A DNA stretch of 64,000 nucleotides from a virus. Its lineage: Duplodnaviria; Heunggongvirae; Uroviricota; Caudoviricetes. The notes beneath the pieces were generated by a model. It saw nothing but the letters and a program-made list of their open reading frames with translations. It was not told where the DNA came from and did not search any database. Location of the stretch: positions 103,062 through 167,061 of IMG/VR virus record IMGVR_UViG_3300020576_001727; one strand, 5' to 3'. Within the stretch, counting starts at the first letter, position 1; each line of letters starts with the position of its first letter. Position numbers and translations under genes: made by a program. Below are positions 6,829 through 20,836 of the stretch, piece by piece.

Positions 6829-7262
6829 CTTATGCACATGATTATCTGAATGAATTGATTTGGGTGAAGCTGAAGAAGCCGGATGATTTCTTGATTATTA
6901 AGGAAACTCTGACTCGAATTGGAATACCTTCGAAAATGGAGAAGAAATTGACCCAAACTTGTCATATTCTCCACAAGAAAGGAAGATATGCGATTGTTCA
7001 CTTCAAGGAATTGTTCATATTAGATGGAAAACCAACTGATTTTTCCGAAGAAGACAAGGAAAGACGTAATGCTATTGTTGCGTTATTGGAAATGTGGGGA
7101 TTGATCGAAAGAGAAAAGCCTTCGACTGGAAATGGTCCGGAATGGGCAAACAATCCGACGATCAAAATCATTTCGTCCAAGGAAAAATCCGAATGGCAAT
7201 TGATCAGCAAATATACAGTGGGCAACAAAGGAAGATATAATGCCGGTTCCTCCAATTCTTAG
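6825..7262 (+). CDS. regA: RegA translational repressor
   Basis: LKKPDDFLIIKETLTRIGI...CHILHKKGRYAIVHFKE matches T4 RegA; T4 synteny 45-44-62-regA. Confidence 0.8.
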   Translation: MTYAHDYLNELIWVKLKKPDDFLIIKETLTRIGIPSKMEKKLTQTCHILHKKGRYAIVHFKELFILDGKPTDFSEEDKERRNAIVALLEMWGLIEREKPSTGNGPEWANNPTIKIISSKEKSEWQLISKYTVGNKGRYNAGSSNS

Positions 7263-7752
7263 ATTTTTCAAACTGCATCCGAACGTGCAAATTCCAACGC
7301 TGGCAACGGCAGGAAGTGCATGTTTCGACTTGTCCTATTTTCCCCATGTTTCAAAGGTGAAGGGATTCAGCGCGACGAATGCGCCATTCGAGAGAGATAT
7401 CAACGCGGATGGCGGGATTGGTATCATGCAGGGGGAAAGATTGCTTCTGCCAACTGGACTGATCGCGGATATCCCATTGGGTTACTCAATGCGGGTTCAT
7501 CCGCGTTCGGGAACTTCCGTTAAATTGGGATTGACTTTGGCGAATGCGGAAGGTATCATTGACTCAGATTACGTCGAAGAAATTTTCTTGACGGCTCATA
7601 ACACTTCACAAAATCGAATTCTGATCAATCGGGGCGATCGTATTGCCCAAGGAGAATTGTATCAGGATTTGAAAAACATAATTCAGGAAACCTTGACTCG
7701 TCCTGTCCAGAAGACGACCCGCCAAGGTGGTTTTGGTTCTACTGGCGTATGA
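7240..7752 (+). CDS. dut: dUTPase
   Basis: conserved dUTPase motifs (RSG in HPRSGTSV, GIIDSDY, C-terminal GGFGSTG). Confidence 0.7.
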   Translation: MPVPPILRFFKLHPNVQIPTLATAGSACFDLSYFPHVSKVKGFSATNAPFERDINADGGIGIMQGERLLLPTGLIADIPLGYSMRVHPRSGTSVKLGLTLANAEGIIDSDYVEEIFLTAHNTSQNRILINRGDRIAQGELYQDLKNIIQETLTRPVQKTTRQGGFGSTGV

Positions 7753-8474
7753 TATATTCAACAGAAAGAGATAACCTAACGGTGTTCGCTCCCAAGCCAA
7801 AAGTCTTGGTAGTGACACCGACTGTTGATTCCGCCTATATCGTTTCGGATTCCGCCAAAAGTGTTCGTGAACAGAAGTCTGATTATGAATTCGAACACTT
7901 GATAGTTTATGATGGAATCAAGCCTAATGCGTATCGAGGATTGTTTCCTAATACCAAGACAATCGAGCTACCTTGGAACATTGGTGCCAATGGATTTTAT
8001 GGGCATAGAGTGTATGCCGCTATCGGTCATTTGGTCAATCATGATATTGTCTTTTTCCTAGACCAAGACAATTGGTATCAACCGGATCATGTCCAGACTT
8101 TGACCGATCTTTTGGTAAACAAGCCATATGCTCAATTCGGCTTCTCTTATCGGCAGATTTGGGATGGTTACGATTTTGTTTGTATCGATCAATTTGAGTC
8201 AATCGGTCAAGCGCCTCATTGGTTGGTCGATACGTCCAGTTTTGCTTTTCGCAGGACAACTCTTCTGCAATACGGTCATATCTGGCATAGCAAATGGGGT
8301 GCCGACAGACGATTTTTTCAGATAATGAGACAGAATAACATCGCCTATGCGACAACCGGGCTTCCGACTTTGAACTATCGTTTGAATGGAAATCCCAATT
8401 CCCCAACTAGAGAATTTTTCGAGCTAGGCAATCAACAGAATGGATGGAACAAAGATGGAAAACAACGGACTTAA
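7749..8474 (+). CDS. putative glycosyltransferase (GT-A like, DQD)
   Basis: FLDQDNWYQPDH motif; first gene of glycan island. Confidence 0.3.
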   Translation: MIYSTERDNLTVFAPKPKVLVVTPTVDSAYIVSDSAKSVREQKSDYEFEHLIVYDGIKPNAYRGLFPNTKTIELPWNIGANGFYGHRVYAAIGHLVNHDIVFFLDQDNWYQPDHVQTLTDLLVNKPYAQFGFSYRQIWDGYDFVCIDQFESIGQAPHWLVDTSSFAFRRTTLLQYGHIWHSKWGADRRFFQIMRQNNIAYATTGLPTLNYRLNGNPNSPTREFFELGNQQNGWNKDGKQRT

Positions 8475-9498
8475 TCTGGATAAACTTTTTGCCGAAGCCG
8501 GAAATTTATTACAACCATCGCGCGGACTTTTGGTCCCAAGAGAAATACCTAACAAAAATGTGCGTCTGTCTCACCAAGATATGATTATTGGTGCCATCAC
8601 CAATTATGAGCCGGAACATATTGAACAATGGATCGTCTCGATTGAGAAATCCAACTTTCCCGGCAAGCGCATTGCTTTGGTCTATAATGCAAAAAAGCCT
8701 GTCTTGGACAAGCTTCAGGAATATGGTTTCACCATTTGGGCATTGGCTAGAGCTACACCGGAAAAACAGGCGGAAGGTTGGGTTTATTATTACAAAGATT
8801 TGGACAAATTCAATGTCTGTCTTGAACGTTTCTGGCACACATGGATTTTCCTGAAAAAATTGAATCTGACTTCTGACAATGACGTTCGCGTCTATTTGAC
8901 AGACACAAAGGACGTTGTTTTCCAGCGTGATCCTTCCAATTATACCATGCCCGAAAATGTCAGTGTCATGCTGACTTCGGAAGGATTGACTTATGAGAAT
9001 GAGCCTTGGGGATGGAACAACATCACAGAGGCGTTTGGTAAGAACGTGGCAGAAACCATGCGCAATGTTGAAATCTCGAATGCGGGAGTCATTGTTGCTC
9101 GCCTGAACGATACGTTTCTCGATTTCCTTCAATCAGTCTATTTCTTTGGACGTTCAGCCAAGACAATCAACGGACATGTCCCGGGCGGGGGTGGTCCTGA
9201 TCAAGCGTCGGTAAATATCATCGCCAACATGAAAGTTTGGAAGCCTCATATTGCCTTTATCCAGACAACGGATGATTGGTGCTTGAATGCTGGCACAACA
9301 AACGACCCAAACAAGAATTTTGGTGACAAGTTTATTGGAACTCCCGGTATTCTGATTACTCCTAATGAAACGGATGATTTGTTTGTCTTCATTACAGGAG
9401 TCAAGAACATAGCTGGACAATTGTATCATGTTGTTCATCAATATGATAGAAATCCAGAGTGGAATGAGTATTTCAAAAAGGAATATAGATACAAATGA
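8440..9498 (+). CDS. putative nucleotide-diphospho-sugar transferase
   Basis: YLTDTKDVVFQRDP DxD-like segment; context. Confidence 0.3.
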   Translation: MDGTKMENNGLNLDKLFAEAGNLLQPSRGLLVPREIPNKNVRLSHQDMIIGAITNYEPEHIEQWIVSIEKSNFPGKRIALVYNAKKPVLDKLQEYGFTIWALARATPEKQAEGWVYYYKDLDKFNVCLERFWHTWIFLKKLNLTSDNDVRVYLTDTKDVVFQRDPSNYTMPENVSVMLTSEGLTYENEPWGWNNITEAFGKNVAETMRNVEISNAGVIVARLNDTFLDFLQSVYFFGRSAKTINGHVPGGGGPDQASVNIIANMKVWKPHIAFIQTTDDWCLNAGTTNDPNKNFGDKFIGTPGILITPNETDDLFVFITGVKNIAGQLYHVVHQYDRNPEWNEYFKKEYRYK

Positions 9499-10577
9499 AC
9501 ATTGATTTGATTTTGCCGTATGTGAAGCGTTATGCGAAAAAGAATGAAGAAAATTTGATTGCTTATGTAATGGAACATAAGGGTTCTATTCTGAAAAAAT
9601 TGGGAGAAACAGAACTCTTTTTGCTGGTTACAGGTCATGCCTTTCATGAAAACGAAGCCGATTTTGTGTTTGTTGATTATAACAGACTTCAAGATGTTGA
9701 AAAGCCTTGGTCTTTTGTTAAGTTAGGCGGCTGGATTGTCTTTGTCATGAACGAACATAATTGGTCTTTGATCAAGAAATTCCGTCAAGCCAATCGTATC
9801 AGTTCTTTTCCGAGAATCGCCGGGGAATTGGTGTTCTTTCAAAAGGAAGATTATGCAAATCGAAAGCCGGTTCCTCCTGCCAATGATAATTCTTTGTTAA
9901 GAATAGCCGATTTCTATGACGAGCCGGGAAGTATTCCGGTTCCGGACCCTGCCGGTTCTCATTTGAAGATCGATTATATTCAGAAATATGGTCAATTCGA
10001 TGCGTTTATCGAAACAGGAACATATCTTGGACAAACTGTTGAACTTATTCGTAATTCTGGACTTCCATTTGAGGAAATTTATTCGATTGAATTGGAACCA
10101 ACTCTTGCCAAGAATGCTCGCAAATATTTCGCGGGCGATACAAGAGTGTTTATTGTTGAAGGCGATTCGGTCGATATAGTGTCCAAAATTTGTAGTCAAA
10201 AATTGGACAACAAGAATGCCACGTTTTGGTTGGATGCACATGCTTCCGGTCCTTTGAAAGGTGGAAGAACCGGTCCAAATCCTCTTGTCGAGGAACTAGA
10301 AGCCATTCGACAAACTGGAAACCCAAATCATACAATCTTGATCGATGATCGCCGCTTGTTTGGTTCTGGCGAATGGGGATTTTTGAAAGAAGAGAAGGTA
10401 ATGGAAATGCTCAATAAAATCAACCCGAATTATACAATTTTGTATCTGGACGGGGAAGTGCCCGAAGATATTATCTGTGCAACAGTTGTCGAGAGAGAAA
10501 TTTCAGTCATTGAGCCTGTTTCAATTGTTGAAAATGCCCAAAATACTGAAATGATGGTCCTAGAGGATTTTGAATGA
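9495..10577 (+). CDS. SAM-dependent methyltransferase (FkbM/class I-like)
   Basis: FIETGTYLGQTVE...IELEP...IVEGDS motifs. Confidence 0.5.
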   Translation: MNIDLILPYVKRYAKKNEENLIAYVMEHKGSILKKLGETELFLLVTGHAFHENEADFVFVDYNRLQDVEKPWSFVKLGGWIVFVMNEHNWSLIKKFRQANRISSFPRIAGELVFFQKEDYANRKPVPPANDNSLLRIADFYDEPGSIPVPDPAGSHLKIDYIQKYGQFDAFIETGTYLGQTVELIRNSGLPFEEIYSIELEPTLAKNARKYFAGDTRVFIVEGDSVDIVSKICSQKLDNKNATFWLDAHASGPLKGGRTGPNPLVEELEAIRQTGNPNHTILIDDRRLFGSGEWGFLKEEKVMEMLNKINPNYTILYLDGEVPEDIICATVVEREISVIEPVSIVENAQNTEMMVLEDFE

Positions 10578-11500
10578 AAATAATCAAGCTTGGGTTTGTC
10601 GATACGTTTGATGGAACGGCTGAATTCTTTCTTGATACCTTGAAGGAATTATTCACTCTCGATATCAAGGATGAATTTTCTGGTGATATCTATGAGTTTG
10701 AACGCAATGATACAGACCCAAATATTCTCTTTTTTGGGGATGAAAACTTTGGCACTCGTAACTTGTCTTACGATCCGTCCAAAGTTCTGAAAATCTTCTA
10801 TACAGGAGAGAATCGACGTTTCTATAACTATCAGTGTCATTACGGAATCACTTTCGACCATATCGATGATGACCGGCATTTCCGTTTGCCTCTATATCTC
10901 CTGAATATGCATTACTTGAAAGAAAGACATAAAATCAGTTGGATGCCTGAATGGAAGCGCCGGGCTGATACTATGTCAACCAACAAGGATTATGATCGCG
11001 CATTCTGTGGTTATGTTCAAGCCAATCCCAACTGTGAAAAGCGTAATGATTTTTTCCAGAAATTGAATGCATACAAAAAGATCGACTCGGCTGGACCGCA
11101 TTTCAATAATACGGGCTTCATCCTTCCTAGAGGCGAAGATGGAATTCTGAAAAAAATGGATTTCCTTCGTGAAAAGAAATTCACTCTTGCATTCGAGAAT
11201 GGTTCATATCCCGGTTATGCAACAGAGAAGCTTTTGGAAGCGTGGTTGGCGGGAACGGTCCCGATCTATTGGGGTTCACCAACGGTCGCACTCGATTTCA
11301 ATCCGAAGGCTTTCATCAACTGGCATGATTTCTCGGATGATGGCAAGTTTATTGAATACATCAAGTTGGTCGATAGCGACAAATATATCTATAACGCAAT
11401 TCGCAATCAGCCTTTGTTTGTTGATTATGGTTATTATGATGGTTGGGAAAGTAGATTCTATAACTGGTTTAATAGAATAATCGAAAGACACATTCAATGA
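10574..11500 (+). CDS. GT10-family alpha-1,3/4-fucosyltransferase-like glycosyltransferase
   Basis: LAFENGSYPGYATEKLLEAWLAGTVPIYWG matches FucT FxFENSxxxxYVTEK...VPIYxG signature. Confidence 0.6.
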   Translation: MKIIKLGFVDTFDGTAEFFLDTLKELFTLDIKDEFSGDIYEFERNDTDPNILFFGDENFGTRNLSYDPSKVLKIFYTGENRRFYNYQCHYGITFDHIDDDRHFRLPLYLLNMHYLKERHKISWMPEWKRRADTMSTNKDYDRAFCGYVQANPNCEKRNDFFQKLNAYKKIDSAGPHFNNTGFILPRGEDGILKKMDFLREKKFTLAFENGSYPGYATEKLLEAWLAGTVPIYWGSPTVALDFNPKAFINWHDFSDDGKFIEYIKLVDSDKYIYNAIRNQPLFVDYGYYDGWESRFYNWFNRIIERHIQ

Positions 11501-12210
11501 GCTTCAAAGTAGCACTCTGCTTATCAGGACAACCAAGATCATACAAGAAAGGTTACGAGTATCACAAGCGTAACCTTTTAGATCATTTTGACGTTGATGT
11601 TTTCATGCATTCTTGGAATGACATTGGAGAAGAAACCAAAGCTGATCTAGTTAATCTTTATGGTTCGGATAATCGTAAAGTGGAGTCGTCTTTCGGACTT
11701 TTGGGGGAACATCTGCTTTCGGCAATAGATGAATTTTATTCCAGAATTCCAAATCCTCAATTCCCGGCACGTAACACATATCGTATGTTCTATTCCATTC
11801 GAGAATCCAAGCCCGATAGAATGGATAATTATGATGTAATCATTCGCTCCCGTTATGATTATGCCTTGAATGTCAAGCTTCCTTTGCAGGAAACGAAGGT
11901 TGGAAAGATTTATGTTCCTTCCGACAGAATGACTCCTGCCCATGATTTTTGTGCGGACATGTTTGCTTTCGGCACTCCCAAAGTAATGCGCTCGTATATG
12001 GATACGTTTTATAATCTCAAAAAACATTATGAAAACGGCGTGACCATGATCGGGGAAGACATGCTTGCCGCACAATTGAAACATCATGGTTTGATTGGTG
12101 AGAACATGGTTTACGTGAACATGGCCAATCCTTTTCCGCCCGGTAAATACAATGGAAATTGGCATTCTCTCATTCGAGAAGACTTTACAGATTGGAACAA
12201 ACTACGATGA
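11497..12210 (+). CDS. uncharacterized paralog family member 1 (VALxLxGQxR..DVDxxxHxW)
   Basis: paralogous to 14759..15472 and 15450..16229. Confidence 0.5.
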   Translation: MSFKVALCLSGQPRSYKKGYEYHKRNLLDHFDVDVFMHSWNDIGEETKADLVNLYGSDNRKVESSFGLLGEHLLSAIDEFYSRIPNPQFPARNTYRMFYSIRESKPDRMDNYDVIIRSRYDYALNVKLPLQETKVGKIYVPSDRMTPAHDFCADMFAFGTPKVMRSYMDTFYNLKKHYENGVTMIGEDMLAAQLKHHGLIGENMVYVNMANPFPPGKYNGNWHSLIREDFTDWNKLR

Positions 12211-12632
12211 TTTTCAAGGAATTGTCGGATTATCCGGGTTATTTTGCATGTTCTGATGGGTGGGTATATTCATCATGGAGGCAAACCAAAGATTCTTCCT
12301 ACATTGACTATTCCGTCAAACATAAACTTAAGCCGGGTTTAAGAGGAAAAAAGAAATATTATTTAATTTGCCCCAAAAATATAGATGGCAAACCGACAAC
12401 TAAGGATATTCATAGCTTAATTGCATCCGCATTCCTTGGTCCGAAACCAGAAGGCATGACCGTTTCACATAAGGACGGCAATTCTAAAAATAATAAACCT
12501 GAGAATTTGGTATATGAAACATATTCGGATAATCATAAGAGAAAAATAGAACATGGCACTTATGATGGTGGGACAAAAAATTCAAGGGCTATATTTTCTC
12601 TAGAAGATTTGCAAACAATGCTATCCTTGTGA
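12207..12632 (+). CDS. HNH homing endonuclease (NUMOD4-like N-term)
   Basis: HKDGNSKNNKPENL...SDNHKRK; DYPGYFACSDGWVYSS. Confidence 0.6.
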   Translation: MIFKELSDYPGYFACSDGWVYSSWRQTKDSSYIDYSVKHKLKPGLRGKKKYYLICPKNIDGKPTTKDIHSLIASAFLGPKPEGMTVSHKDGNSKNNKPENLVYETYSDNHKRKIEHGTYDGGTKNSRAIFSLEDLQTMLSL

Positions 12633-12717
12633 AACCAAAACTGGACACATAAGCAAATAGCAGACCATTTGAATACAGATTCACGAAACATTCAACGAAT
12701 TTTAGCAGGACAAAGAT

Positions 12718-14097
12718 ATGCAAGAGAAATACAATCGCTTAATAGTGTTTGATTTGGATGGTGTTTTGGTCGATACAAAAGACATTCATTATCATGCCTT
12801 GAATTATGCTCTTAATAAAGCTGGTGTAAAGACAATCGCTTATTCGGAACATGTTTCAACTTATGACGGACTTCCTACCAAGACCAAACTAGATATGCTA
12901 TCAGCAAAAGGTCTTGACCGTTCTTTGATTCCTCAAATTATCAAAGATAAAAATGAAATGACCAATCACAAACTCTATAATCTTCAAAAAGATGAAAAGC
13001 TTGTTGATTTGTTTGCTGCTTTGAAAATTCATGGCTATAAGATAGCGGTCGCCTCCAATGCGGTAAGAGATACTGTCAAGATTTGTATTGATCGCCTTGG
13101 TTTGAATCTCTTGGTTGATTTGTTTTTGTCCAATGAAGACGTTACCAACCAAAAGCCGCACCCCGAAATCTATTGGAAAGCCATGTCCAAGCTTAAGGCA
13201 TTGCCTGAAAATACAATCATTGTCGAGGATTCAGCCGTTGGTCGTGAAGGCGCGAACAAGACAGGAGCCTTGGTTTGGGGACTCGATCATCTTTACGAAT
13301 TGACTTTGGATAACATGCTGAATTATATAGACAAATTGGAAAAGACTCCAAACAAGACGGTTTGGAAAGACGAAAAGATGACCGTTCTCATTCCAATGGC
13401 TGGATTGGGGTCGCGCTTCGCCCAAGCCGGTTACACGTTCCCCAAGCCTTTGATCGAAGTCCGAAACAAGCCGATGATTCAGATTGTTGCCGAAAATCTA
13501 GGGATCGATGCCAAGTTCGTCTACATCGTTCAAAAGGAACATTACGAGAAATATAATCTGAAAAATGTCTTGAACCTGATCACTCCTAATTGTGAAATAG
13601 TTCAGACAGAAGGCTTGACAGAAGGCGCCGCTTGCACTACATTACTCGCTAAACATCTGATTGATAATGATCGTCGGTTGGTAATTGCCAACAGTGATCA
13701 GTTTGTCGAGTGGGATTCAGCCAAGACGCTTTATTCCTTGATTGAGTCTAAAGTGGACGGTGGAATTTTGACGTTCAAGTCAACGCATCCGAAATGGTCA
13801 TTTGCCAAGGTCGATGAATCTGGTTTTGTTACCGAAGTTGCTGAAAAGCAGCCAATCTCGGATAATGCAACCGTTGGTATCTATTATTGGAAGCATGGTT
13901 CGGATTACGTCAAGTATGCAGAACGAATGATCACAAAGAATATTCGCACCAATAATGAGTTCTATGTGTGTCCGGTCTTCAATCAGGCTATCGAGGATGG
14001 GAAGAAGATCGTTACCAGACAGATTGAAGCTATGTGGGGAATTGGCACTCCCGAAGATTTGAATTATTTCTTGAACAATTACAAAGGTGTAGTATGA
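12718..14097 (+). CDS. bifunctional HAD-family phosphatase / sugar-phosphate nucleotidyltransferase
   Basis: N-term LIVFDLDGVLVDT (HAD motif I); C-term LIPMAGLGSRF nucleotidyltransferase signature. Confidence 0.55.
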   Translation: MQEKYNRLIVFDLDGVLVDTKDIHYHALNYALNKAGVKTIAYSEHVSTYDGLPTKTKLDMLSAKGLDRSLIPQIIKDKNEMTNHKLYNLQKDEKLVDLFAALKIHGYKIAVASNAVRDTVKICIDRLGLNLLVDLFLSNEDVTNQKPHPEIYWKAMSKLKALPENTIIVEDSAVGREGANKTGALVWGLDHLYELTLDNMLNYIDKLEKTPNKTVWKDEKMTVLIPMAGLGSRFAQAGYTFPKPLIEVRNKPMIQIVAENLGIDAKFVYIVQKEHYEKYNLKNVLNLITPNCEIVQTEGLTEGAACTTLLAKHLIDNDRRLVIANSDQFVEWDSAKTLYSLIESKVDGGILTFKSTHPKWSFAKVDESGFVTEVAEKQPISDNATVGIYYWKHGSDYVKYAERMITKNIRTNNEFYVCPVFNQAIEDGKKIVTRQIEAMWGIGTPEDLNYFLNNYKGVV

Positions 14098-14762
14098 AAT
14101 TAGGTATTGTCAGTGACTTGCATCTTGAATTTCGAGATGCAAACTTTTTCTATGATATTTCCGACAAGCTTCATGAGAGTGAAGCCGATGTAATCATTTT
14201 GGCTGGTGATATTCATAGACAGAAGATAATGAGAGATTTGTTTCTGGAGTCAATTCAGAAGCCTTATTTCTTCGTGCATGGAAATCATGATTATTACAAC
14301 AAATTCGCCTTTGTGGAAGACGATTTCCATGAAGAAATCTTCGACGGCGTGAAGATAGCGGGAGCTTGTCTTTGGACTCATTTTGGGGATGATCCGATTG
14401 TGGAGATACATGCTCGCGAAGAAATCAACGATTTTCGAGTTATTCCGAACTTCACCACGTTCAAATGTAAGGAAATTTTCTCACAACAGTTTAAGAAGTT
14501 GATGCAGTCGGATGCTGATATCATTGTCACACATTTTCCACCGACTTATGCGACTGAAAATCCTTTATACAAGAACAGTCCTTTGAATCCATATTTCATG
14601 AACAATCTTGACGATCATGTTTATGATAAGAAGCTTTGGATTCATGGTCATACGCATACCAGACGCGAAGCTATGGTCGGGAATTGTCGAGTGATAACTA
14701 ATCAGTTGGGTTATCCCGGTGAAATCAAAGAACCATACGAAATCAAGATAGTGGAAGTGTGA
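14094..14762 (+). CDS. calcineurin-like metallophosphoesterase
   Basis: GIVSDLH, LAGDIH, GNHD motifs. Confidence 0.55.
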   Translation: MKLGIVSDLHLEFRDANFFYDISDKLHESEADVIILAGDIHRQKIMRDLFLESIQKPYFFVHGNHDYYNKFAFVEDDFHEEIFDGVKIAGACLWTHFGDDPIVEIHAREEINDFRVIPNFTTFKCKEIFSQQFKKLMQSDADIIVTHFPPTYATENPLYKNSPLNPYFMNNLDDHVYDKKLWIHGHTHTRREAMVGNCRVITNQLGYPGEIKEPYEIKIVEV

Positions 14763-15472
14763 TGAAAGTAGCTCTAATCCTTTATGGTCAGCCTCGTTTT
14801 ATTCAGAGGGATGATGTCTATAAATCCCATATCGATAATATCGTTTATAAGTATGATGATGTAGACATTTACGCGCATATGTGGTGGCATCCTTTTGATC
14901 ATTTTGGAACAACTTCAAGTTGGGCAAAGGATCATGGAACACAAGATTTTATGAGTTGCCCAATTGATGCACCAGCACTTATAGCGACAAAATATCATCC
15001 AAAACGTATGTTGATAATGCCTCCACAACGGTTTGAACCGGAACCTCAAACTAAACAGATTCTCGAATCTCGTTTTACCGGAAACAAGTATTTTTCATGG
15101 GAAAATTGGAGCAACATCGCCTCCCAACTAACCGCATTACAAGAAGCCTCACTTTTGGTTGAACAAGCGAACCAATACGATTGGTTGGTGATGGCTAGAT
15201 ATGATGCTCTCCTAGAGAATTTTCCTGACTTAACCACGTTGGAACCGGGCTTCTATTGTCCCCAAGGCGGTCATTTTAATGACTTGATTCACGTCTATAA
15301 ACCAGTCTATAATGAGTTTTTCAACTATCTGGCATCTGCTGCGAACGATCCTTGGATTCTTAACAAGATCGATTTGCCGATTCCCGAATTGTTCAAATAC
15401 TGGCACTACCAATCCTGTTTCATGCAGGAACCAAAGAAGATAGGAATGTATGCACATGTCATCCGAAACTAA
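14759..15472 (+). CDS. uncharacterized paralog family member 2
   Basis: MKVALILYGQPRF...DVDIYAHMWW. Confidence 0.5.
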   Translation: MMKVALILYGQPRFIQRDDVYKSHIDNIVYKYDDVDIYAHMWWHPFDHFGTTSSWAKDHGTQDFMSCPIDAPALIATKYHPKRMLIMPPQRFEPEPQTKQILESRFTGNKYFSWENWSNIASQLTALQEASLLVEQANQYDWLVMARYDALLENFPDLTTLEPGFYCPQGGHFNDLIHVYKPVYNEFFNYLASAANDPWILNKIDLPIPELFKYWHYQSCFMQEPKKIGMYAHVIRN

Positions 15473-16229
15473 GAAGGCTAAAGTTGCGCTCGTTCTGACA
15501 GGTCATATGCGTTGTTGGGAACAAGTCTATCCGAATATCAAGAAAAATTTCATTGATCCGTATGATACGGACGTTTTCATTTCGACTTGGGATGACGAAG
15601 GCTATTGGACTTCCCCGGAAAATGATCCGAAGGGAGTAGGCGTCAATACGGCTTCTCCCAAGCTGAATATCGAAAGAGTCAAGGAAATCTATAATCCGAT
15701 AAAATTTTATATTGACTCGAATGAAGAATATCGAGAAACTTATGATCATCAAGCCAAAATATTAGAACCATATTGTAAGCAAATTCGACCGCTGAATATT
15801 CTTTGTCAGTTTGACCGTATCTATAATGGATATGCCGACATGCTATCGACGGGAATACAATATGATTGGGTTGTTCGAATTCGCCCGGATTTGATAATTA
15901 ATTCTGGACTACCCAATCTGAATACAACGCCTAAAGATTTTGTTTTCACATTACATCATCCTAACCACGAAGGTCTTGGAACGGGTGATATGATGCTGAT
16001 TTCTTCCCTTAATTTTGCTTATTATTTTGGAATTGGTCATATATCAGTTCCGAGTGATGCAAACACAAAGAATCTTCTTGTTAATGGTCGTTTCTGCCCA
16101 CATGTCTATACCAAGCATGTAATCAAGAAATTGTGTGAAGAATTGCAACACAAGCACGTTGAATTGAGAGTGGATAAGTATCTTATGCATACCCCGCGCG
16201 GACAATATCAGGATGTTCCCAATGGCTAA
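15450..16229 (+). CDS. uncharacterized paralog family member 3
   Basis: KVALVLTGHMRCW...DTDVFISTWDDEG. Confidence 0.5.
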   Translation: MHMSSETKKAKVALVLTGHMRCWEQVYPNIKKNFIDPYDTDVFISTWDDEGYWTSPENDPKGVGVNTASPKLNIERVKEIYNPIKFYIDSNEEYRETYDHQAKILEPYCKQIRPLNILCQFDRIYNGYADMLSTGIQYDWVVRIRPDLIINSGLPNLNTTPKDFVFTLHHPNHEGLGTGDMMLISSLNFAYYFGIGHISVPSDANTKNLLVNGRFCPHVYTKHVIKKLCEELQHKHVELRVDKYLMHTPRGQYQDVPNG

Positions 16230-16740
16230 AATCATTTCACATAGAGGCAATCTATCCGGACCTAAAACCGCTCCAAGTGGAGAGAATAGCGGTCACGCCA
16301 TCAAACATGCGATAGCTGAAGGATTTGATGTCGAAGTCGATATTCAGGATTTTGACGGATATAATTTCATTACCGGACATGACGAAGCCGATCATGTTGT
16401 CGATTCGCAAAAACTTGATATAAATCGGGTTTGGTTTCATGCTAAAAGCATATACATCTTTGAAAAAATGTTGAACCATACCACCAAATTCAATGTCTTT
16501 TATCATACCAATGAAGACGTTGTTCTAACTTCCAAGGGAAATCTTTGGTTTTTCCCCAAGGCTATTATTCCATTCCATTCGAATAATGTCATGGTATTGC
16601 CCGAAGCCTTTTGGTTCAGGAAAAGGGAAAGTGGTTCTTACTGGAATATGTCATCTGACTTGAAATTGATGATGCAACAGCTTCATGGGGTTTGCACAGA
16701 TTATCCCTATGATTTTTATGAATTTTTTGGAGGAAAATAA
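16213..16740 (+). CDS. glycerophosphodiester phosphodiesterase (GDPD)-like
   Basis: ISHRGNLSGP...ENSGHAIKHAIAEGFDVEVDI matches GP-PDE N-terminal motifs. Confidence 0.45.
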   Translation: MFPMAKIISHRGNLSGPKTAPSGENSGHAIKHAIAEGFDVEVDIQDFDGYNFITGHDEADHVVDSQKLDINRVWFHAKSIYIFEKMLNHTTKFNVFYHTNEDVVLTSKGNLWFFPKAIIPFHSNNVMVLPEAFWFRKRESGSYWNMSSDLKLMMQQLHGVCTDYPYDFYEFFGGK

Positions 16741-17940
16741 GTGAAAACCGTATCTATCATTGGTGCTTGTGGGCATGTTGGTCTTCCTCTAACAGTGCTT
16801 GTCGCGGAAGCCGATTATAATACCATCGGCATTGATATAAACCGGGAAGCCGTTGATTTGGCAAACAATGGAATGGCTACGTTCAAGGAAAAGAATTTAA
16901 ACGAGCGCCTTGCCAACATCAAACAAAATGGCAACCTGCATTTTGTCATTGCAGACACCATTCAAGCCGATGCAGCCTTGATCGAATCGGACGTGATTGT
17001 CATCATTATCGGAACTCCAATCGATCACGAAAACAATCCGAGAATGGAGCCTCTTTTCGATCTTGCCGAAATGCTCAATCGAGTCGATCTTTCCAACAAG
17101 GTCATCATTTTACGTTCAACAGTATCGCCGGGAACAACTGCCGTCTTTGCCGAAAAGCTGAATCAGACTCCCAAGGCAATCGCTTTCTGTCCGGAACGTG
17201 TCCAGCAAGGCAATTCGTTAGTCGAACTCGAAAAATTTCCTCAAATCGTCGGAATGCATTCGGGCAATCGAGAAGCCGTCCATAATTTTTTCTGGAAAGT
17301 TCTTCCCGATATAGAACTTATCGAAGCTACCGATTTGGAAGCCGAAATTGGCAAGCTGTTTACCAACATGGCGCGTTATATCGAATTTGCCGTGGCGAAT
17401 GAATTTCAGATGATTGCCGCCTCGTTTGGTGTTGATGGAACCGACATTCTTGAAAAATTCAAGAAATCCTATCCTCGCATGAATCTCGCCAAACCCGGTC
17501 CAAATGTTGGCGGTCCTTGCCTGTTCAAGGATGGCAAGTTCTTGTTGAAAAACGTGAGTGGAATGACCATGACCGAAATGGCATTTCGAGTGAATGAGGG
17601 AATGCCAGCCTATATCGTCCAGCAAATGCAGCCGTTGCCGGGTGACAGAGTTTTGATCCTCGGAGCCGCTTTCAAGGCGGAAAGTGATGATATCCGCAAT
17701 TCCTTGTCATTCAAGCTGAAAAAACTCTTGATTAATGAAGGGGTTGACGTTACAATTTACGATCCTCATGTGAAGGGGTATGAAAAACTTCCTAGTTTGG
17801 ATGGTTTTGAATATTTCGTGGTAATGACGCCTCATTCACAGTTCGCGGAATTGCTATATCAAATCGATGATGAACGGAACGCCAATTCCACAATCGTTGA
17901 TTTCTGGAAAATAAATCCAGATAAAGGAATAATGTATTAA
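16741..17940 (+). CDS. NDP-sugar (UDP-glucose/GDP-mannose) 6-dehydrogenase, GTG start
   Basis: Rossmann VSIIGACGHVGLPL; central and C-terminal dehydrogenase domains (GGPCL catalytic Cys region). Confidence 0.6.
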   Translation: MKTVSIIGACGHVGLPLTVLVAEADYNTIGIDINREAVDLANNGMATFKEKNLNERLANIKQNGNLHFVIADTIQADAALIESDVIVIIIGTPIDHENNPRMEPLFDLAEMLNRVDLSNKVIILRSTVSPGTTAVFAEKLNQTPKAIAFCPERVQQGNSLVELEKFPQIVGMHSGNREAVHNFFWKVLPDIELIEATDLEAEIGKLFTNMARYIEFAVANEFQMIAASFGVDGTDILEKFKKSYPRMNLAKPGPNVGGPCLFKDGKFLLKNVSGMTMTEMAFRVNEGMPAYIVQQMQPLPGDRVLILGAAFKAESDDIRNSLSFKLKKLLINEGVDVTIYDPHVKGYEKLPSLDGFEYFVVMTPHSQFAELLYQIDDERNANSTIVDFWKINPDKGIMY

Positions 17941-17951
17941 AGGAAAACAAT

Positions 17952-18932
17952 ATGACAATTTTAGTAACTGGTTCAGCCGGATCATTGGGTTCGGAAATCG
18001 TCAAGCAACTGAAAGACAATCAAACAGATTTCAATTCTGTCTATGGAATAGATATTAATGAAGGCGAACATGTTGATTTCAAAATTGATTTGGTTGATAA
18101 TGTTTCTGAATTAGAACGGGTTTTTGGTGATATACAACCCGATATCATAGTGCATTGCGCAGCGAATATCTATGGAATCGGTGGTTTTAATGCCTTGCCA
18201 GCAACCATCCTTGGCAAAGACGTTGCCATGCTCTATAACACTTTGAATTTGTTCAAGAATTTACCGAAAAAAACCAAGTTTGTTTATATTTCTTCTTCAA
18301 TGGTGTATGAGCAAGTTCGGGGTGATCCTGAACTTTCCGAACATCTGGTTGACGATTCGATTGCTCCTAAGACAGAATATGGAATGTCCAAGTTTGTTGG
18401 GGAGAGATTGGTTAAAGCCTTTGGCAAGGAATATGGCATCGAATATACAATCTGGCGTCCTTTCAATATCATTACTCCATATGAGAAGCCCAAGGAAGGA
18501 AGAAACAGACAGGGATACTCCCATGTCTTTGCGGATTTCTTTGAAAATATTCTAATCAACAAACTGAATCCATTGCCTATCATTGGTTCTGGTAGTCAAG
18601 TTCGATGCTTTACGTGGTATGAGGAAGTCGCTGATTGTATCGTCTCAAATCTGTGGAACAAGAAGACCGTCAATGAAGTTTACAACATTGGCAACAATGA
18701 ACCTGTCAACATGATGCAGTTGGCGCATATGATCGTGGACGAATCCAAGGAAAGAGGATATTTGTCCAAGGATTTCCGATTGGAATTCAAATCGGTCAAG
18801 GACTATCCCAATGATGTCATGGTAAGAGTTCCTAACGTGTTCAAGGCTCTTGGTGATCTTGGTTTCTCTGCTTCGATCAAGACCAAGGAATCGATCAAGC
18901 GTTGTATGAATGAATGGGAAAAACTCCTATGA
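17952..18932 (+). CDS. NAD-dependent epimerase/dehydratase (SDR)
   Basis: ILVTGSAGSLGS, YGMSK (YxxxK). Confidence 0.6.
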   Translation: MTILVTGSAGSLGSEIVKQLKDNQTDFNSVYGIDINEGEHVDFKIDLVDNVSELERVFGDIQPDIIVHCAANIYGIGGFNALPATILGKDVAMLYNTLNLFKNLPKKTKFVYISSSMVYEQVRGDPELSEHLVDDSIAPKTEYGMSKFVGERLVKAFGKEYGIEYTIWRPFNIITPYEKPKEGRNRQGYSHVFADFFENILINKLNPLPIIGSGSQVRCFTWYEEVADCIVSNLWNKKTVNEVYNIGNNEPVNMMQLAHMIVDESKERGYLSKDFRLEFKSVKDYPNDVMVRVPNVFKALGDLGFSASIKTKESIKRCMNEWEKLL

Positions 18933-19888
18933 CCAAGAAAAACTTCCTGATTATTGGCGGCTATGGTTATGTCGGCACTCATTTGCGAAAGTATCTGACT
19001 CAAAAATATGATTTGAGTGAAGAATTTGGTTCGGCTCGAAAAAACAACGGCAAAATCTATGATATAGATATTTTGTCGAGTGATTATCAGTCTCAATTGA
19101 AAGAATCTCTTTTGCATGAATATGATGCGGTGTTCTATCTTGCTGCAAATTCTATGGTTTCGGACGGCATTCTTTCTCCATTTTCAACACTTGAAAACAA
19201 TGTCGGTCAATTGATGTATTATCTCAAAATGTTGAAAGGCAAAGCCAAGACTTGGGTTTTTGCTTCATCTTCTTCGGTTTATGCATCCGACTCAAAGCTT
19301 GTCAAGGATGGTGATGGATATTCTGAAAATAGTCCAACCAAAATCTATGCAATGTCAGCCGCCGCCAATGCCAATGACAGCATTTATGCGGTTTCAAAGA
19401 TTTTGGGAGAGAGAATTTTACAAGCCGCGAATCATGAATATGGTTTGAAGTCGATTTCTCTTCGATTTGGTAATATCGCCGGTAATGAAATTCAATCATA
19501 TGTCTGGAAAAATCATCTAATTCCCAAGCTTCTTTTATCAGAAGATCGAAAGATTACTTTTTATGGCAATCCTAATTCCTTTTCAAGGGATTATGTTCAT
19601 ATCAATGATGTTTGTATTGCCTTGGATTTGGCTTGGCAATATTCTTTGACGACTGGATTGGGTTATGAAGTGTTCAACATTGCTTCTGGACAAGACACAA
19701 CTAACGCGGCAATTCTGAAAAAAGTCGAAACCTATTTGGATAAAAAATTTGATACCGTCATAGGAGACGAACGAATTGGGGAAGAATACAACATCAAGCT
19801 TGACATTACCAAGGCAAAACAGTATCTTGGTTGGGAGCCTAAGAAAAATTTGAATGATATAATTCAGTCATATGTAGGAGTGGTTTGA
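18914..19888 (+). CDS. NAD-dependent epimerase/dehydratase (SDR)
   Basis: LIIGGYGYVGTH, YAVSK. Confidence 0.6.
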   Translation: MGKTPMTKKNFLIIGGYGYVGTHLRKYLTQKYDLSEEFGSARKNNGKIYDIDILSSDYQSQLKESLLHEYDAVFYLAANSMVSDGILSPFSTLENNVGQLMYYLKMLKGKAKTWVFASSSSVYASDSKLVKDGDGYSENSPTKIYAMSAAANANDSIYAVSKILGERILQAANHEYGLKSISLRFGNIAGNEIQSYVWKNHLIPKLLLSEDRKITFYGNPNSFSRDYVHINDVCIALDLAWQYSLTTGLGYEVFNIASGQDTTNAAILKKVETYLDKKFDTVIGDERIGEEYNIKLDITKAKQYLGWEPKKNLNDIIQSYVGVV

Positions 19889-20331
19889 TGTTTGATTCTG
19901 ATTATGTGAAGAAGTGGGGCAAAGGTCCGTTTGTCACTGTTGACGTGGTTCTCTATGACACTCTCAATCGATTTTTGTTGATTCAGAGACAGGATGGCCA
20001 ATGGGCAAATCCCGGTGGGTTTGTCGAAGCCGAAGAAGAGTTGATCGACGCGGCGAAGCGCGAAATGCTTGAAGAAACAGGCGTTGATTTGGACGCGATT
20101 CATGCACGAATGCCTTATGCAGTTCATCCGTTTTCGTCTGTCAATCGTGATCCTCGCGCCAGAATCATAACGTTTGCTCATTATTTCATCGTCTTGGATT
20201 TGAATAAGATAGATTTCAAGGCGGGCGACGATGCAAAAGATGCGCGAATTTTCCGATTGGATGAAATCAAGGAAATGGATTTGTATGGCGATCATAAAAA
20301 AATTATCGCAATGGTCGATTATCTGGATTGA
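19885..20331 (+). CDS. Nudix hydrolase
   Basis: Nudix box GGFVEAEEELIDAAKREMLEETG. Confidence 0.65.
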   Translation: MMFDSDYVKKWGKGPFVTVDVVLYDTLNRFLLIQRQDGQWANPGGFVEAEEELIDAAKREMLEETGVDLDAIHARMPYAVHPFSSVNRDPRARIITFAHYFIVLDLNKIDFKAGDDAKDARIFRLDEIKEMDLYGDHKKIIAMVDYLD

Positions 20332-20780: not shown

Positions 20781-20791
20781 CAAAAATCGAT

Positions 20792-20836
20792 AATGGGGAT
20801 TGACATTTGTTTTAATCCCCATTATTTTATTTTTGA
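20792..20836 (+). terminator. rho-independent terminator (10-bp stem aatggggatt/aatccccatt + T-run) with TTGACA in loop
   Basis: read directly. Confidence 0.55.

What the first reader, a model, noticed from the sequence alone, without database searches (positions are those of the whole stretch)
7749..20331. 12.6-kb sugar-nucleotide / glycan biosynthesis island inserted into the T4-type replication module
The island splits the conserved T4 block regA-(43) right after regA and dUTPase. It encodes a near-complete glycan assembly line:
- NDP-sugar 6-dehydrogenase
- two SDR epimerase/dehydratases
- a HAD phosphatase fused to a sugar-1-P nucleotidyltransferase
- at least three glycosyltransferase-like proteins, including a GT10 fucosyltransferase-like one
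- a SAM methyltransferase, a GDPD-like esterase, a metallophosphoesterase and a Nudix hydrolase

This far exceeds the single glucosyltransferases used for T-even DNA modification. It could specify a complex DNA hypermodification (glycosylated hydroxymethyl-pyrimidine) or a phage-driven surface-glycan modification.
Basis: partly seen in the sequence, partly recalled or inferred. Interest (0 to 1): 0.85.

Follow-up and report, generated by a model that had tools for sequence, protein, structure and literature searches.

The report
Glycan-building gene cluster in T4-like phage
A lake-type T4-like phage carries a conserved 14-gene operon of soluble sugar-activating enzymes and six sugar-transferases. 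Similar clusters are already known in marine T4-like phages; it most likely remodels a cell-surface (or virion) sugar coat, not the phage DNA.

Summary

It is not a recent insertion. The full block is syntenic in relatives L171 and L173 and largely in L012. It diverges in step with gp44 and regA, has dN/dS of 0.05-0.28, and shares the genome's GC content and restriction-site avoidance.

A core of it (HAD-nucleotidyltransferase, GDPD-like protein, GT77-like GT-A, DUF7796 GT-A) recurs in at least 576 viral contigs and in cyanomyoviruses. In bacteria the HAD-NT/GDPD pair sits inside O-antigen/capsule-type loci beside Wzx-like or ABC exporters, which the phage lacks.

DNA hypermodification is disfavoured:
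- GTAC occurs 0 times against 77 expected, and GGCC 13 against 140.
- 16 of 56 six-base palindromes are absent, unlike in T4.
- No gp42, gp56 or beta-gt homologue lies in the 73 kb read.

Best reading, with confidence about 0.45: an early-expressed cytoplasmic assembly line that feeds a new glycan into host export machinery. The main rival is virion glycosylation. This is a new member of a known kind, and the function is untested.

The parts
7749..8474 (+). GT2-like GT-A glycosyltransferase (241 aa)
   Evidence: Pfam Glycos_transf_2, E 1.4e-4, 22.3 bits, just under the cut-off. DQD motif. Orthologues at 94% (L171) and 55% (L173), and in 15 of 80 core-module loci.
8455..9498 (+). GT-A glycosyltransferase of the Nucleotid_trans (GT77)/GT_PLOD type (347 aa; longest ORF starts at 8440)
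   Evidence: The window protein itself has no Pfam hit. Of 25 family members, 6 hit PF03407 and 4 hit PF25342 (best E 9.8e-6). Invariant TD..DV.FQ..P, DQ and HQYDR motifs. Found in 47 of 80 HAD-NT loci.
9495..10577 (+). Two-domain protein; the C-terminal ~200 aa is a class-I SAM methyltransferase-like domain (probable sugar O-methyltransferase)
   Evidence: 821 homologues, mostly stand-alone ~200-aa proteins. One is fused to GT2 (P0201) and one is named 'predicted O-methyltransferase YrrM' by JGI. The profile hits COMT, Erm and PIMT at E 0.002-0.01. No direct Pfam hit.
10574..11500 (+). GT10 alpha-1,3/4-fucosyltransferase-like (308 aa)
   Evidence: Pfam Glyco_transf_10, E 1.3e-17; FucT_N, E 4.1e-13. 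FENS..Y.TEK-type motif read in the sequence. 37.6% identical to the S-SKS1 'alpha-1,4 fucosyltransferase'.
11497..12210 (+). DUF7796/phrog_13607 paralogue A, GT-A fold
   Evidence: phrog_13607, E 1.2e-21. The family hits DUF7796 in 21 of 33 members. Fold inferred from the model of paralogue C.
12207..12632 (+). HNH homing endonuclease; a mobile insertion, not a pathway gene
   Evidence: Pfam HNH_3, E 9.6e-12. Absent between the same neighbours in L171 and L173.
12718..14097 (+). Fusion of a HAD (beta-phosphoglucomutase-like) domain and a sugar-phosphate nucleotidyltransferase (459 aa)
   Evidence: HAD_2, E 3.3e-32; NTP_transferase, E 2.1e-11. PDB profile: 4evw NDP-sugar pyrophosphorylase 3.6e-22 and beta-PGM 2.6e-18. 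All HAD motifs intact (read). About 60% identical in at least 576 viral contigs and in cyanophages.
14094..14762 (+). Calcineurin-like metallophosphoesterase (222 aa)
   Evidence: Metallophos, E 6.5e-16. phrog_1649, E 4.5e-40.
14762..15472 (+). DUF7796/phrog_13607 paralogue B, GT-A fold
   Evidence: phrog_13607, E 1.8e-26 over its full length.
15456..16229 (+). DUF7796/phrog_13607 paralogue C, GT-A fold
16222..16740 (+). Minimal GDPD-like phosphodiesterase (172 aa)
16741..17940 (+). NDP-sugar 6-dehydrogenase (399 aa)
   Evidence: Three UDPG_MGDP_dh domains. TIGR03026, 252 bits, above the cut-off; no equivalog cut-off is reached. GGPCLFKD catalytic Cys motif.
17952..18932 (+). Extended SDR, epimerase-like (326 aa)
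   Evidence: Epimerase, E 1.9e-38. SSS..VY and YxxxK motifs. No NCBIfam equivalog cut-off is reached.
18929..19888 (+). Extended SDR, GalE-like (319 aa)
   Evidence: Epimerase, E 2.1e-27. Best NCBIfam hit is GalE at 95.9 bits, below the cut-off.
19888..20331 (+). Nudix hydrolase (147 aa); membership in the pathway is uncertain
   Evidence: NUDIX, E 4.2e-19. Best NCBIfam matches are the NadM-type ADP-ribose pyrophosphatase domain at about 60 bits, below the cut-offs. It ends the block in L171 and L173 as well.
20789..20826 (+). Strong terminator-like hairpin (15-pair stem plus T run); probable end of the transcription unit
   Evidence: TTGACA-type promoter-like sites reappear at 20328, 20800 and 21851. 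No (N)ATAAATA late-promoter motif lies on the + strand inside the island.

Best explanation
The block is a vertically inherited operon, co-transcribed with early/middle genes, that encodes a fully soluble cytoplasmic glycan assembly line.

Precursor supply (inferred from domain families):
- The HAD/beta-PGM-like + nucleotidyltransferase fusion turns a sugar phosphate into an NDP-sugar.
- The dehydrogenase oxidises an NDP-hexose to the uronic acid.
- The two epimerase-type SDRs interconvert epimers.

Assembly (inferred):
- Six glycosyltransferases (GT2-like, GT77-like, GT10 fucosyltransferase-like, three DUF7796 GT-A paralogues) add residues in turn.
- A methyltransferase-like domain caps a sugar.
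- The GDPD-like and metallophosphoesterase proteins process phosphodiester or pyrophosphate intermediates.

The phage encodes no initiating phosphoglycosyl transferase, flippase, polymerase or exporter. The product would therefore be built on a host lipid-linked primer and exported by host O-antigen/capsule machinery. That would re-coat the infected cell during the latent period, for example to block superinfection or to stop progeny adsorbing to debris.

Shown: the gene content, folds, conservation, purifying selection and bacterial context. Inferred: the substrates, the acceptor and the benefit to the phage.
For: 1. Enzyme identities are verified.
2. The genes form an operon-like array. Neighbouring genes overlap by up to 52 nt, with three short gaps (0, 11 and 85 nt). 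No late-promoter motif lies inside, and a terminator-like hairpin follows at 20789-20826.
3. No island protein has a transmembrane segment.
4. In free-living bacteria the HAD-NT/GDPD-like pair lies inside surface-polysaccharide loci:
   - Methylophilaceae LSUCC0401 (complete genome): SIS, rmlBDAC, GT2, HAD-NT, GDPD-like, SDR, Wzx-like protein (9 TM), GT2, and 11-TM and 8-TM proteins.
   - SAR86 MED-G79: GT52, ABC exporter, HAD-NT, GDPD-like, SDR, CMP-sugar cytidylyltransferase.
   - UGDH and SDR genes flank the pair in other MAGs.
5. The same gene families occur in the 'LPS/cell-wall synthesis and modification' clusters of T4-like cyanomyoviruses S-CAM9 and B23. The literature reads those clusters as host-surface modification (PMC12801897, PMC9602691, PMC7029224).
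6. The block is maintained by selection. It is syntenic in L171, L173 and L012, and dN/dS is 0.05-0.28, as for gp62, regA and dut.
7. Accessory content varies between lineages, as expected for a surface antigen.
Against: - No experiment, here or in the literature, shows that any lytic T4-like phage alters host LPS or capsule.
- The core module is about 60% identical across phages of very different hosts (marine Synechococcus phages and many lake contigs). That fits a phage-intrinsic acceptor better than host-specific O-antigens.
- Host flippases and ligases are often specific for their own repeat unit.
- Donor sugars are unassigned: no NCBIfam equivalog cut-off was reached.
- No GDP-fucose pathway is evident for the GT10 enzyme.
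- The bacterial context rests on two loci examined in detail.
Confidence: 0.45

Rival explanations
1. Virion glycosylation. The soluble enzymes decorate the phage's own capsid, decoration or fibre proteins in the cytoplasm, as chloroviruses and some mycobacteriophages do. The result would be a glycan shield or adhesin on the particle.
For: - All the enzymes are soluble and cytoplasmic, which is where virions assemble.
- The core module is conserved at about 60% across at least 576 viral contigs from phages of different hosts, arguing for a conserved phage-borne acceptor.
- The toolkit parallels that of PBCV-1: UGDH, SDRs, GT-A enzymes, a methyltransferase domain and fucose. This parallel is from my own knowledge.
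- Some members of the 8455-9498 family hit the PLOD protein-glycosyltransferase domain.
- Pelagimyophage GTs cluster with tail-fibre genes (PMC7029224).
Against: - The genes lie in the replication/early region, 30 kb or more from any structural gene, with no late promoter. Mycobacteriophage GTs sit next to capsid genes (PMC11256854).
- Bacterial homologues of the core pair lie in export-dependent polysaccharide loci.
- The fold matches to viral GTs are no better than those to generic GT-A enzymes.
- No glycoprotein evidence exists for any T4-like phage.
Confidence: 0.3
2. DNA hypermodification. The NDP-sugars and GTs build an oligosaccharide on a modified pyrimidine in phage DNA, as an extended form of the T4 glucosyl-hmC or RB69/Thanatos pentosyl-C systems.
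For: - The block lies in the replication/nucleotide-metabolism region beside a dUTPase, with a dNMP-kinase-like gene (3255-3911) upstream. T4 agt and bgt lie in the equivalent region.
- Expression is probably early.
- T4-like phages with pentosyl-cytosine use NTP-transferase/GT proteins (PMC12838424).
- The UGDH + SDR + SDR set could in principle make a UDP-pentose.
Against: - Restriction-site avoidance is extreme: GTAC 0 against 77 expected, GGCC 13 against 140, and 16 of 56 six-base palindromes absent (p 8e-13). The T4 control shows none absent and obs/exp 0.94. The close relative L171 shows the same avoidance. DNA with bulky cytosine adducts should not be under this selection.
- The dUTPase is an ordinary dut.
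- No gp42, gp56 or bgt homologue lies in the 73 kb read; the only agt similarity is a weak 78-aa match inside the GT10 gene (E 0.007).
- Both SDRs have epimerase-type SSS..VY motifs, without the acid/base Glu of decarboxylases and dehydratases.
- Six GTs exceed any known DNA glycan.
- Cyanomyoviruses that carry the core module are not known to have hmC (own knowledge).
Confidence: 0.06
3. Metabolic rewiring with no new polymer. The HAD-NT, GDPD-like, phosphoesterase and Nudix enzymes redirect host sugar-phosphate, glycerophosphodiester or nucleotide-sugar pools, or make a small glycoside such as a compatible solute. The GT-A paralogues would then act on small acceptors.
For: - Four phosphoesterase or pyrophosphatase-type proteins are present: HAD, GDPD-like, metallophosphoesterase and Nudix.
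- The Nudix protein resembles NadM-type ADP-ribose pyrophosphatases.
Against: - Six different GTs, a GT10 fucosyltransferase-like enzyme and a methyltransferase are hard to justify for a small molecule.
- The bacterial homologues lie in polysaccharide export loci.
- The fold matches are generic for GT-A.
Confidence: 0.1

Closest known systems
'LPS / cell-wall synthesis and modification' gene clusters of T4-like cyanomyoviruses (P-SSM2, S-SCSM1, S-SCSM2R, S-CAM9, B23) and pelagimyophages
   Same: - T4-like myovirus backbone.
- Clustered NDP-sugar epimerases, dehydrogenases and pyrophosphorylases with many GTs (GT2, GT10, GT11, GT25).
- Shared orthologues: HAD-NT at 57-59%, DUF7796 proteins and the GDPD-like protein in S-CAM9 and B23.
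- Function untested (PMC12801897, PMC9602691, PMC7029224).
   Different: - This phage is only distantly related: gp43 is 44% identical to cyanophage polymerases.
- It is probably a lake phage with an unknown host.
- The cluster lies between regA/dUTPase and gp43 rather than in the hli/psbA AMG region or the tail-fibre 'host recognition cluster'.
- It carries three DUF7796 paralogues plus UGDH and two SDRs in one 14-gene operon.
Bacterial Wzx/Wzy- or ABC-dependent O-antigen/capsule loci that carry the HAD-NT + GDPD-like pair (Methylophilaceae LSUCC0401, SAR86 MED-G79)
   Same: The same HAD-NT/GDPD-like gene pair (54-58% identity for HAD-NT), flanked by SDR epimerases and GT2. UGDH homologues flank the pair in other MAGs.
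   Different: The bacterial loci include polytopic membrane proteins (a Wzx-like protein with 9 TM, 11-TM and 8-TM proteins, or an ABC exporter). The phage island has none.
Chlorovirus PBCV-1 capsid glycosylation machinery, and mycobacteriophage virion glycosylation
   Different: There is no sequence-level homology beyond the shared fold. No evidence of glycosylated virion proteins exists here. The genes are not adjacent to structural genes.
T-even DNA glucosylation (gp42, gp56, alpha-gt, beta-gt) and the RB69/Thanatos pentosyl-cytosine systems
   Same: Glycosyltransferase genes embedded in the replication module of a T4-like genome. Use of nucleotide sugars.
   Different: No hydroxymethylase, dCTPase or beta-gt homologue was found in the 73 kb read, and alpha-gt gives only a weak local match (E 0.007) inside the GT10 gene. 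Strong restriction-site avoidance contrasts with T4. There are many more GTs.

Membership tests
T4-like phage cell-surface-glycan ('LPS/CWSM') AMG cluster | Host genome is a T4-superfamily myovirus | tested here: met
   gp45, gp44, gp62, regA, gp43, UvsX and gp41 in T4 order. gp46-like (SMC_N) and UvsW lie upstream; gp47 is assigned by position only. gp43 is 44% identical to Kyanoviridae polymerases.
T4-like phage cell-surface-glycan ('LPS/CWSM') AMG cluster | Contiguous cluster of nucleotide-sugar enzymes with several glycosyltransferases | tested here: met
   14 pathway genes, including 6 GT-like proteins.
T4-like phage cell-surface-glycan ('LPS/CWSM') AMG cluster | Orthology with genes of described cyanophage clusters | tested here: met
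   HAD-NT is 57-59% identical in S-PRM1, S-CAM9 and DSL-LC03. DUF7796 and GDPD-like homologues are adjacent in S-CAM9 and B23. GT10 is 37.6% identical in S-SKS1.
T4-like phage cell-surface-glycan ('LPS/CWSM') AMG cluster | Alters the host cell-surface glycan during infection | not testable with these tools
   Not demonstrated for any member in the papers read (PMC12801897, PMC9602691, PMC7029224).
T-even-type DNA glycosyl hypermodification | dCMP/dUMP hydroxymethylase (thymidylate-synthase family) | tested here: inconclusive
   tblastn of T4 gp42 gives no hit better than E 3.2 in window+L008+L005 (73 kb). No Thymidylat_synt Pfam appears in the gene tables. About 97 kb of the contig could not be read.
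T-even-type DNA glycosyl hypermodification | gp56-type dCTPase that excludes canonical dCTP | tested here: not met
   The 170-aa protein is an ordinary dut, best match phiM19 dUTPase at 46%. T4 gp56 gives only E 0.078, at an unrelated site.
T-even-type DNA glycosyl hypermodification | alpha-gt/beta-gt-type DNA glycosyltransferase | tested here: not met
   beta-gt: best E 0.94. alpha-gt: a 78-aa local match at E 0.007 inside the GT10 gene, consistent with a shared GT-B nucleotide-binding half only.
T-even-type DNA glycosyl hypermodification | Genome freed from selection against Type II restriction sites | tested here: not met
   GTAC 0 against 77 expected; GGCC 13 against 140. Six-base palindromes have obs/exp 0.79 with 16 of 56 absent; T4 gives 0.94 with 0 absent.
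Bacterial O-antigen/capsule biosynthesis locus | Nucleotide-sugar genes plus glycosyltransferases | tested here: met
Bacterial O-antigen/capsule biosynthesis locus | Initiating phosphoglycosyl transferase and a flippase, polymerase or ABC exporter (polytopic membrane proteins) | tested here: not met
   No island protein has a TM-like segment; the two hydrophobic stretches in UGDH are Rossmann strands. The bacterial loci with the HAD-NT pair have 8-11-TM proteins or an ABC exporter.
Virus-encoded virion glycosylation (chlorovirus / mycobacteriophage type) | Soluble virus-encoded glycosyltransferases | tested here: met
Virus-encoded virion glycosylation (chlorovirus / mycobacteriophage type) | Glycan covalently attached to virion proteins | not testable with these tools
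   Needs virions.
GT10 fucosyltransferase | Glyco_transf_10 catalytic domain with the alpha-1,3-FucT motif, plus the FucT_N domain | tested here: met
   64.5 and 50 bits, both above the cut-offs. 'LAFENGSYPGYATEK' read.
Glycerophosphodiester phosphodiesterase (GDPD) | TIM-barrel GDPD fold with the HR / EN / ExD / HD catalytic motifs | tested here: inconclusive
   The fold and the motif order are met. However, the protein is only 172 aa against about 220-250 for GDPDs, aligning 127-145 residues. No Pfam or PDB sequence-profile hit to GDPD was obtained.
UDP-glucose/GDP-mannose dehydrogenase family | Three-domain architecture and a catalytic Cys | tested here: met
   All three Pfam domains score above their cut-offs. 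TIGR03026 at 252 bits against a cut-off of 189.8. GGPC motif. Substrate unassigned.
Class-I SAM methyltransferase (9495-10577, C-terminal half) | Rossmann-like SAM-binding fold with the E/DxGxG motif | tested here: inconclusive
   'FIETGTYLG' motif. Profile hits to COMT, Erm and PIMT reach only E 0.002-0.01. Pfam Methyltransf_24 hits a homologue at E 0.11. No structure model was made.

The most novel reading that the evidence does not exclude
The core module is HAD-nucleotidyltransferase + minimal GDPD-like protein + GT77-like GT-A + DUF7796 GT-A. It is about 60% conserved in at least 576 aquatic T4-like phage contigs and usually lies a few kb from gp43-uvsX. On this reading it does not touch the host envelope. 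Instead it builds a phage-intrinsic glycoconjugate, most plausibly a glycan on capsid or fibre proteins. That would make cytoplasmic virion glycosylation a widespread, previously unrecognised trait of environmental T4-like phages. The 14-gene island here would then be an elaborated, fucosylated, uronic-acid-containing, methyl-capped version.
Probability: 0.3. Interest if true: 0.7.

Novelty: new member of a known kind. Interest (0 to 1): 0.36.

Why it matters
Glycan gene clusters are among the most common unexplained cargo of aquatic T4-like phages, and their target has never been shown.

This locus offers a compact, fully syntenic, selection-maintained 14-gene version in a non-cyanophage lineage. 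The comparison isolates a four-to-five-gene core that is shared by hundreds of phages and by bacterial O-antigen-type loci.

That gives concrete reagents and a clear three-way test of the target: host envelope, virion or DNA. The reagents are the HAD-NT fusion, the mini-GDPD and the DUF7796 GT-A proteins.

The restriction-site statistics already narrow the options by arguing against DNA hypermodification.

If the target proves to be the host envelope, it would document surface re-coating by lytic phages. If it is the virion, it would extend virus-encoded glycosylation to a major phage group.

Tried and rejected
- Megablast of 7000-21000 against 50,697 phage records found nothing.
- Single-sequence PDB searches of the four unannotated proteins gave no significant hit.
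- Single-protein back-translation scans of viral contigs with DUF7796 paralogue B and with UGDH found nothing. An alignment query was needed.
- The afdb50 fold library was unavailable.
- A literature search for 'DUF7796' found no paper. A search for phage virion glycoproteomics returned nothing relevant to T4-like phages.
- I considered a GDP-fucose pathway (Gmd/Fcl/Gmm-like) for the SDR-SDR-Nudix trio. I rejected it because both SDRs have epimerase-type SSS..VY motifs and score far below the Gmd/Fcl equivalog cut-offs, and because the Nudix protein matches NadM-type ADPR pyrophosphatase domains better than Gmm.
- I considered a UDP-xylose/arabinose route (UGDH-UXS-epimerase). It is not supported: the UXS/ArnA match covers only part of SDR1, at 79 bits against a cut-off of 294.
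- I considered recent horizontal insertion. I rejected it on GC content, shared site avoidance, synteny and dN/dS.
- The rest of the 170-kb contig could not be walked, because look-ups are restricted to window proteins.

Full report
**Source and backbone.** The window is part of JGI metagenome contig 3300033119|Ga0364480_10126 (170,332 bp); window position 1 is about record position 103,062. The same proteins recur on other 50-200 kb contigs, including one of 170,409 bp. The genome is therefore probably near-complete at about 170 kb.

The backbone is T4-type:
- Upstream of the window lie UvsW, an N6/N4 DNA methyltransferase and a gp46-like (SMC_N) protein, preceded by a 272-aa ORF in the gp47 position with no Pfam hit.
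- Inside the window, in order: an AAA_5 ATPase, a 268-aa GT62-like protein, a dNMP-kinase-like protein, gp45, DsbA, a GIY-YIG endonuclease, gp44, gp62, regA and dUTPase.
- The finding follows. Much later come gp43 (49675-52209), UvsX and gp41.
- gp43 is only 44% identical to the nearest isolates, which are cyanomyoviruses. Megablast of the island finds no phage record.

**Observation.** From 7749 to 20331 the + strand carries an unbroken chain of ORFs. Neighbouring genes overlap by up to 52 nt, with three short gaps of 0, 11 and 85 nt.

- *Direct Pfam/NCBIfam hits*: GT10 fucosyltransferase with its FucT_N domain, the HAD_2 + NTP_transferase fusion, a metallophosphoesterase, a three-domain NDP-sugar dehydrogenase (TIGR03026 above its cut-off), two extended SDRs and a Nudix hydrolase. 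The first ORF is a borderline GT2.
- *The 347-aa protein (8455-9498)* belongs to a family whose members hit Nucleotid_trans (GT77) and the PLOD GT domain. The family keeps DxD-like, DQ and HQYDR motifs.
- *The C-terminal half of the 360-aa protein* is a widespread ~200-aa domain. One homologue is fused to GT2, and one is named an O-methyltransferase by its source. The profile weakly matches COMT, Erm and PIMT, so 'SAM methyltransferase' is plausible but not proven.
- *An HNH homing endonuclease* (12207-12632) interrupts the block and is missing from relatives.

The island therefore holds 14 pathway genes with six GT-like proteins. No island protein has a transmembrane segment.

**Position.** regA and gp43 are 42 kb apart. 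The island is the first 12.6 kb of that interval. The remainder holds about 31 tRNA genes, a full-length GOLLD RNA, homing endonucleases and small ORFs.

Among 80 viral contigs with a related regA, 23 reach gp43 within about 1-9 kb with no island, and many others end before gp43 is reached. Only L011, L012, L013 and L061 have the island at this place, and L087 has a small version.

**Age and selection.**
- Relative L171 (79-97% amino-acid identity) and the much more distant L173 (31-67%) carry all 14 genes in the same order after regA-dUTPase, ending with the Nudix gene.
- In L173 the island genes have diverged about as much as gp44 (62%) and regA (61%).
- dN/dS between the window and L171 is 0.05-0.28 for every island gene. 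The values for gp62, regA and dut are 0.10, 0.12 and 0.075.
- GC content is unremarkable, and the island shares the genome's idiosyncratic site avoidance.

The block is thus an old, vertically inherited, functional part of this clade's genome, lying in a plastic region. It is not a recent insertion.

**A conserved core.**
- In the 80 best loci it is followed by the GDPD-like gene in 70. It is accompanied by the GT77-like gene in 47, a DUF7796 gene in 46 and the GT2-like gene in 15.
- uvsX lies 5-10 kb upstream of HAD-NT in 20 of these loci, and gp43 is also present in 15.
- In some loci the GDPD-like domain is fused to a ~270-aa domain that carries a DSD motif.
- The same genes sit together in cyanomyoviruses S-CAM9 and B23, beside annotated glycosyltransferases and an epimerase.
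- GT10, UGDH, the SDRs, the extra DUF7796 copies, the methyltransferase-like protein and the Nudix protein are the lineage-specific elaboration.

**Bacterial context.** The HAD-NT gene also occurs in cellular genomes, and 21 of 80 loci have the GDPD-like gene beside it.

| Genome | Neighbourhood of the HAD-NT/GDPD-like pair |
|---|---|
| Methylophilaceae LSUCC0401 (complete genome) | SIS isomerase, rmlB-D-A-C, GT2, **HAD-NT, GDPD-like**, SDR, Wzx-type Polysacc_synt protein (9 TM), GT2, 11-TM and 8-TM proteins |
| SAR86 MED-G79 (280-kb contig) | GT52, fused ABC exporter, **HAD-NT, GDPD-like**, SDR, CMP-sugar cytidylyltransferase, HAD, 2-hydroxyacid dehydrogenase |

UGDH and SDR homologues flank the pair in several other MAGs. 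The native setting of the core is therefore an export-dependent cell-surface polysaccharide locus. The phage has kept the soluble half only.

**Against DNA hypermodification.**
1. Markov-corrected word counts show GTAC 0 observed against 77 expected and GGCC 13 against 140. Six-base palindromes sum to obs/exp 0.79, with 16 of 56 absent (Mann-Whitney p 8e-13).
2. The first 50 kb of T4, whose DNA is glucosyl-hmC, gives 0.94 with none absent and GGCC at 1.13.
3. L171 shows the same GTAC/GGCC loss, while L012 does not. Such avoidance is the signature of DNA exposed to Type II restriction. Both fully avoided sites contain cytosine.
4. The adjacent 170-aa protein is an ordinary dUTPase.
5. T4 gp42, gp56 and beta-gt have no homologue in the 73 kb readable. 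Alpha-gt gives only a 78-aa, E 0.007 match inside the GT10 gene.
6. The SDR active-site motifs are epimerase-type, not decarboxylase-type.

The caveats are that about 97 kb of the contig is unread, and that partial or thymine-directed modification is not excluded. I give this reading about 6%.

**Expression.** No T4-type late-promoter motif (TATAAATA or NATAAATA) lies on the + strand between 5.5 and 21.3 kb. A 15-pair terminator-like hairpin follows at 20789-20826, and TTGACA-type promoter-like sites reappear from 20328. The block is most simply read through from the clamp-loader/regA/dut genes, which would make it early or middle. This is an inference from motifs only.

**Mechanism.** The best-supported model is a soluble cytoplasmic assembly line with the following steps, all inferred from domain families:
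- The HAD/beta-PGM-like + NT fusion makes an NDP-sugar. All HAD motifs and the GxGSRF loop are intact.
- UGDH makes a uronic acid, and its Cys motif is intact.
- The two SDRs epimerise.
- Six GTs, including a fucosyltransferase-like one, add residues.
- A methyltransferase-like domain caps the glycan.
- The GDPD-like and metallophosphoesterase proteins handle phosphodiester or pyrophosphate intermediates.

Because initiation, flipping and export functions are absent, the product would have to ride on host machinery (confidence about 0.45). This matches the standing but untested interpretation of similar clusters in cyanomyoviruses and pelagimyophages (PMC12801897, PMC9602691, PMC7029224).

The main rival (about 0.3) is glycosylation of the phage's own virion proteins. 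It is favoured by the high conservation of the core across phages of very different hosts and by the chlorovirus-like toolkit. It is disfavoured by the bacterial context and by the distance from structural genes. A purely metabolic role gets about 0.1.

**Comparison and novelty.** Clusters of 13-24 'LPS/cell-wall' genes with up to 13 GTs, including GT10, GT11, GT2 and GT25, are published for T4-like cyanophages. UGDH and GT genes are published for pelagimyophages. This locus shares orthologues with them.

It is therefore a new member of a known kind, in a different and probably freshwater T4-like lineage, and at a different genomic site. To my knowledge and in the papers searched, the following have not been described:
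- the delineation of the conserved HAD-NT/mini-GDPD/GT77-like/DUF7796 core;
- the assignment of a GT-A fold to DUF7796;
- the link of the core to bacterial O-antigen-type loci.

These are annotations, not a new mechanism. Interest is moderate (0.36). It would rise if the virion-glycosylation reading proved true.

Noticed in passing
window 41103-41562 (+): Full-length GOLLD RNA (Rfam RF02032): 214.6 bits against a gathering score of 150, covering model positions 1-416 of 416. A tRNA-Gln (41168-41238) is embedded in it. It lies in the regA-gp43 interval of a T4-like phage.
   Followed up: no
window 21317-41238 (+): An array of about 31 tRNA genes covering most amino acids. It is interspersed with small ORFs and GIY-YIG/HNH endonucleases, between the glycan island and gp43.
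   Followed up: no
whole window; also L171, L173: Extreme, lineage-specific restriction-site avoidance. GTAC is 0 against 77 expected and GGCC 13 against 140, and 16 of 56 six-base palindromes are absent. Close relatives L171 and L173 share it, but L012 does not. This implies host GTAC- and GGCC-specific R-M systems and could help identify the host.
   Followed up: partly
window 2439-3245 (+) and 3255-3911 (+): A 268-aa GT62/Mnn9-like protein (Anp1, E 4.9e-5, below the cut-off) lies just before gp45 in most related contigs that extend far enough upstream, whether or not they carry the island. Homologues also occur in Sinorhizobium phiM7/phiN3, Stenotrophomonas DLP6 and some cyanophages. In a subset of relatives it is directly followed by a dNMP-kinase-like gene.
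   Followed up: partly
L012 13909-16326: In relative IMGVR_UViG_3300033075_001163 the HAD-nucleotidyltransferase gene is a single 805-aa ORF. It carries an in-frame insertion of about 340 aa between the conserved halves, possibly an intein.
   Followed up: no
window 12207-12632 (+); 4851-5438 (-); 30755-31357, 36292-36981, 48354-48842 (+): Several homing-endonuclease genes (HNH_3, GIY-YIG/SegE-like, HNH-AP2). One lies inside the glycan operon and is absent from L171 and L173. Another lies between dsbA and gp44.
   Followed up: partly
L162, L155, L129, L156 and others (e.g. L162 12081-13352): In some phages the mini-GDPD domain is fused to a ~270-aa C-terminal domain that has a DSD motif and no Pfam hit. 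The fused protein is 415-430 aa.
   Followed up: partly
window 22423-22818 (by synteny with L171 16024-16419); 21332-21727; 61395-62300: Downstream small ORFs include:
- an RF-1 (peptidyl-tRNA hydrolase domain) protein, annotated in L171 only;
- a cREC_REC-like protein (E 0.013 in the window, Pfam-annotated in L171 and L173);
- a weak Gad2-like protein;
- a Lar restriction-alleviation protein.
   Followed up: no
window 55.9-57.0 kb (+): A second phosphoesterase pair, HAD_SAK_2 followed by Metallophos, lies downstream of gp41. It is unrelated in position to the island.
   Followed up: no
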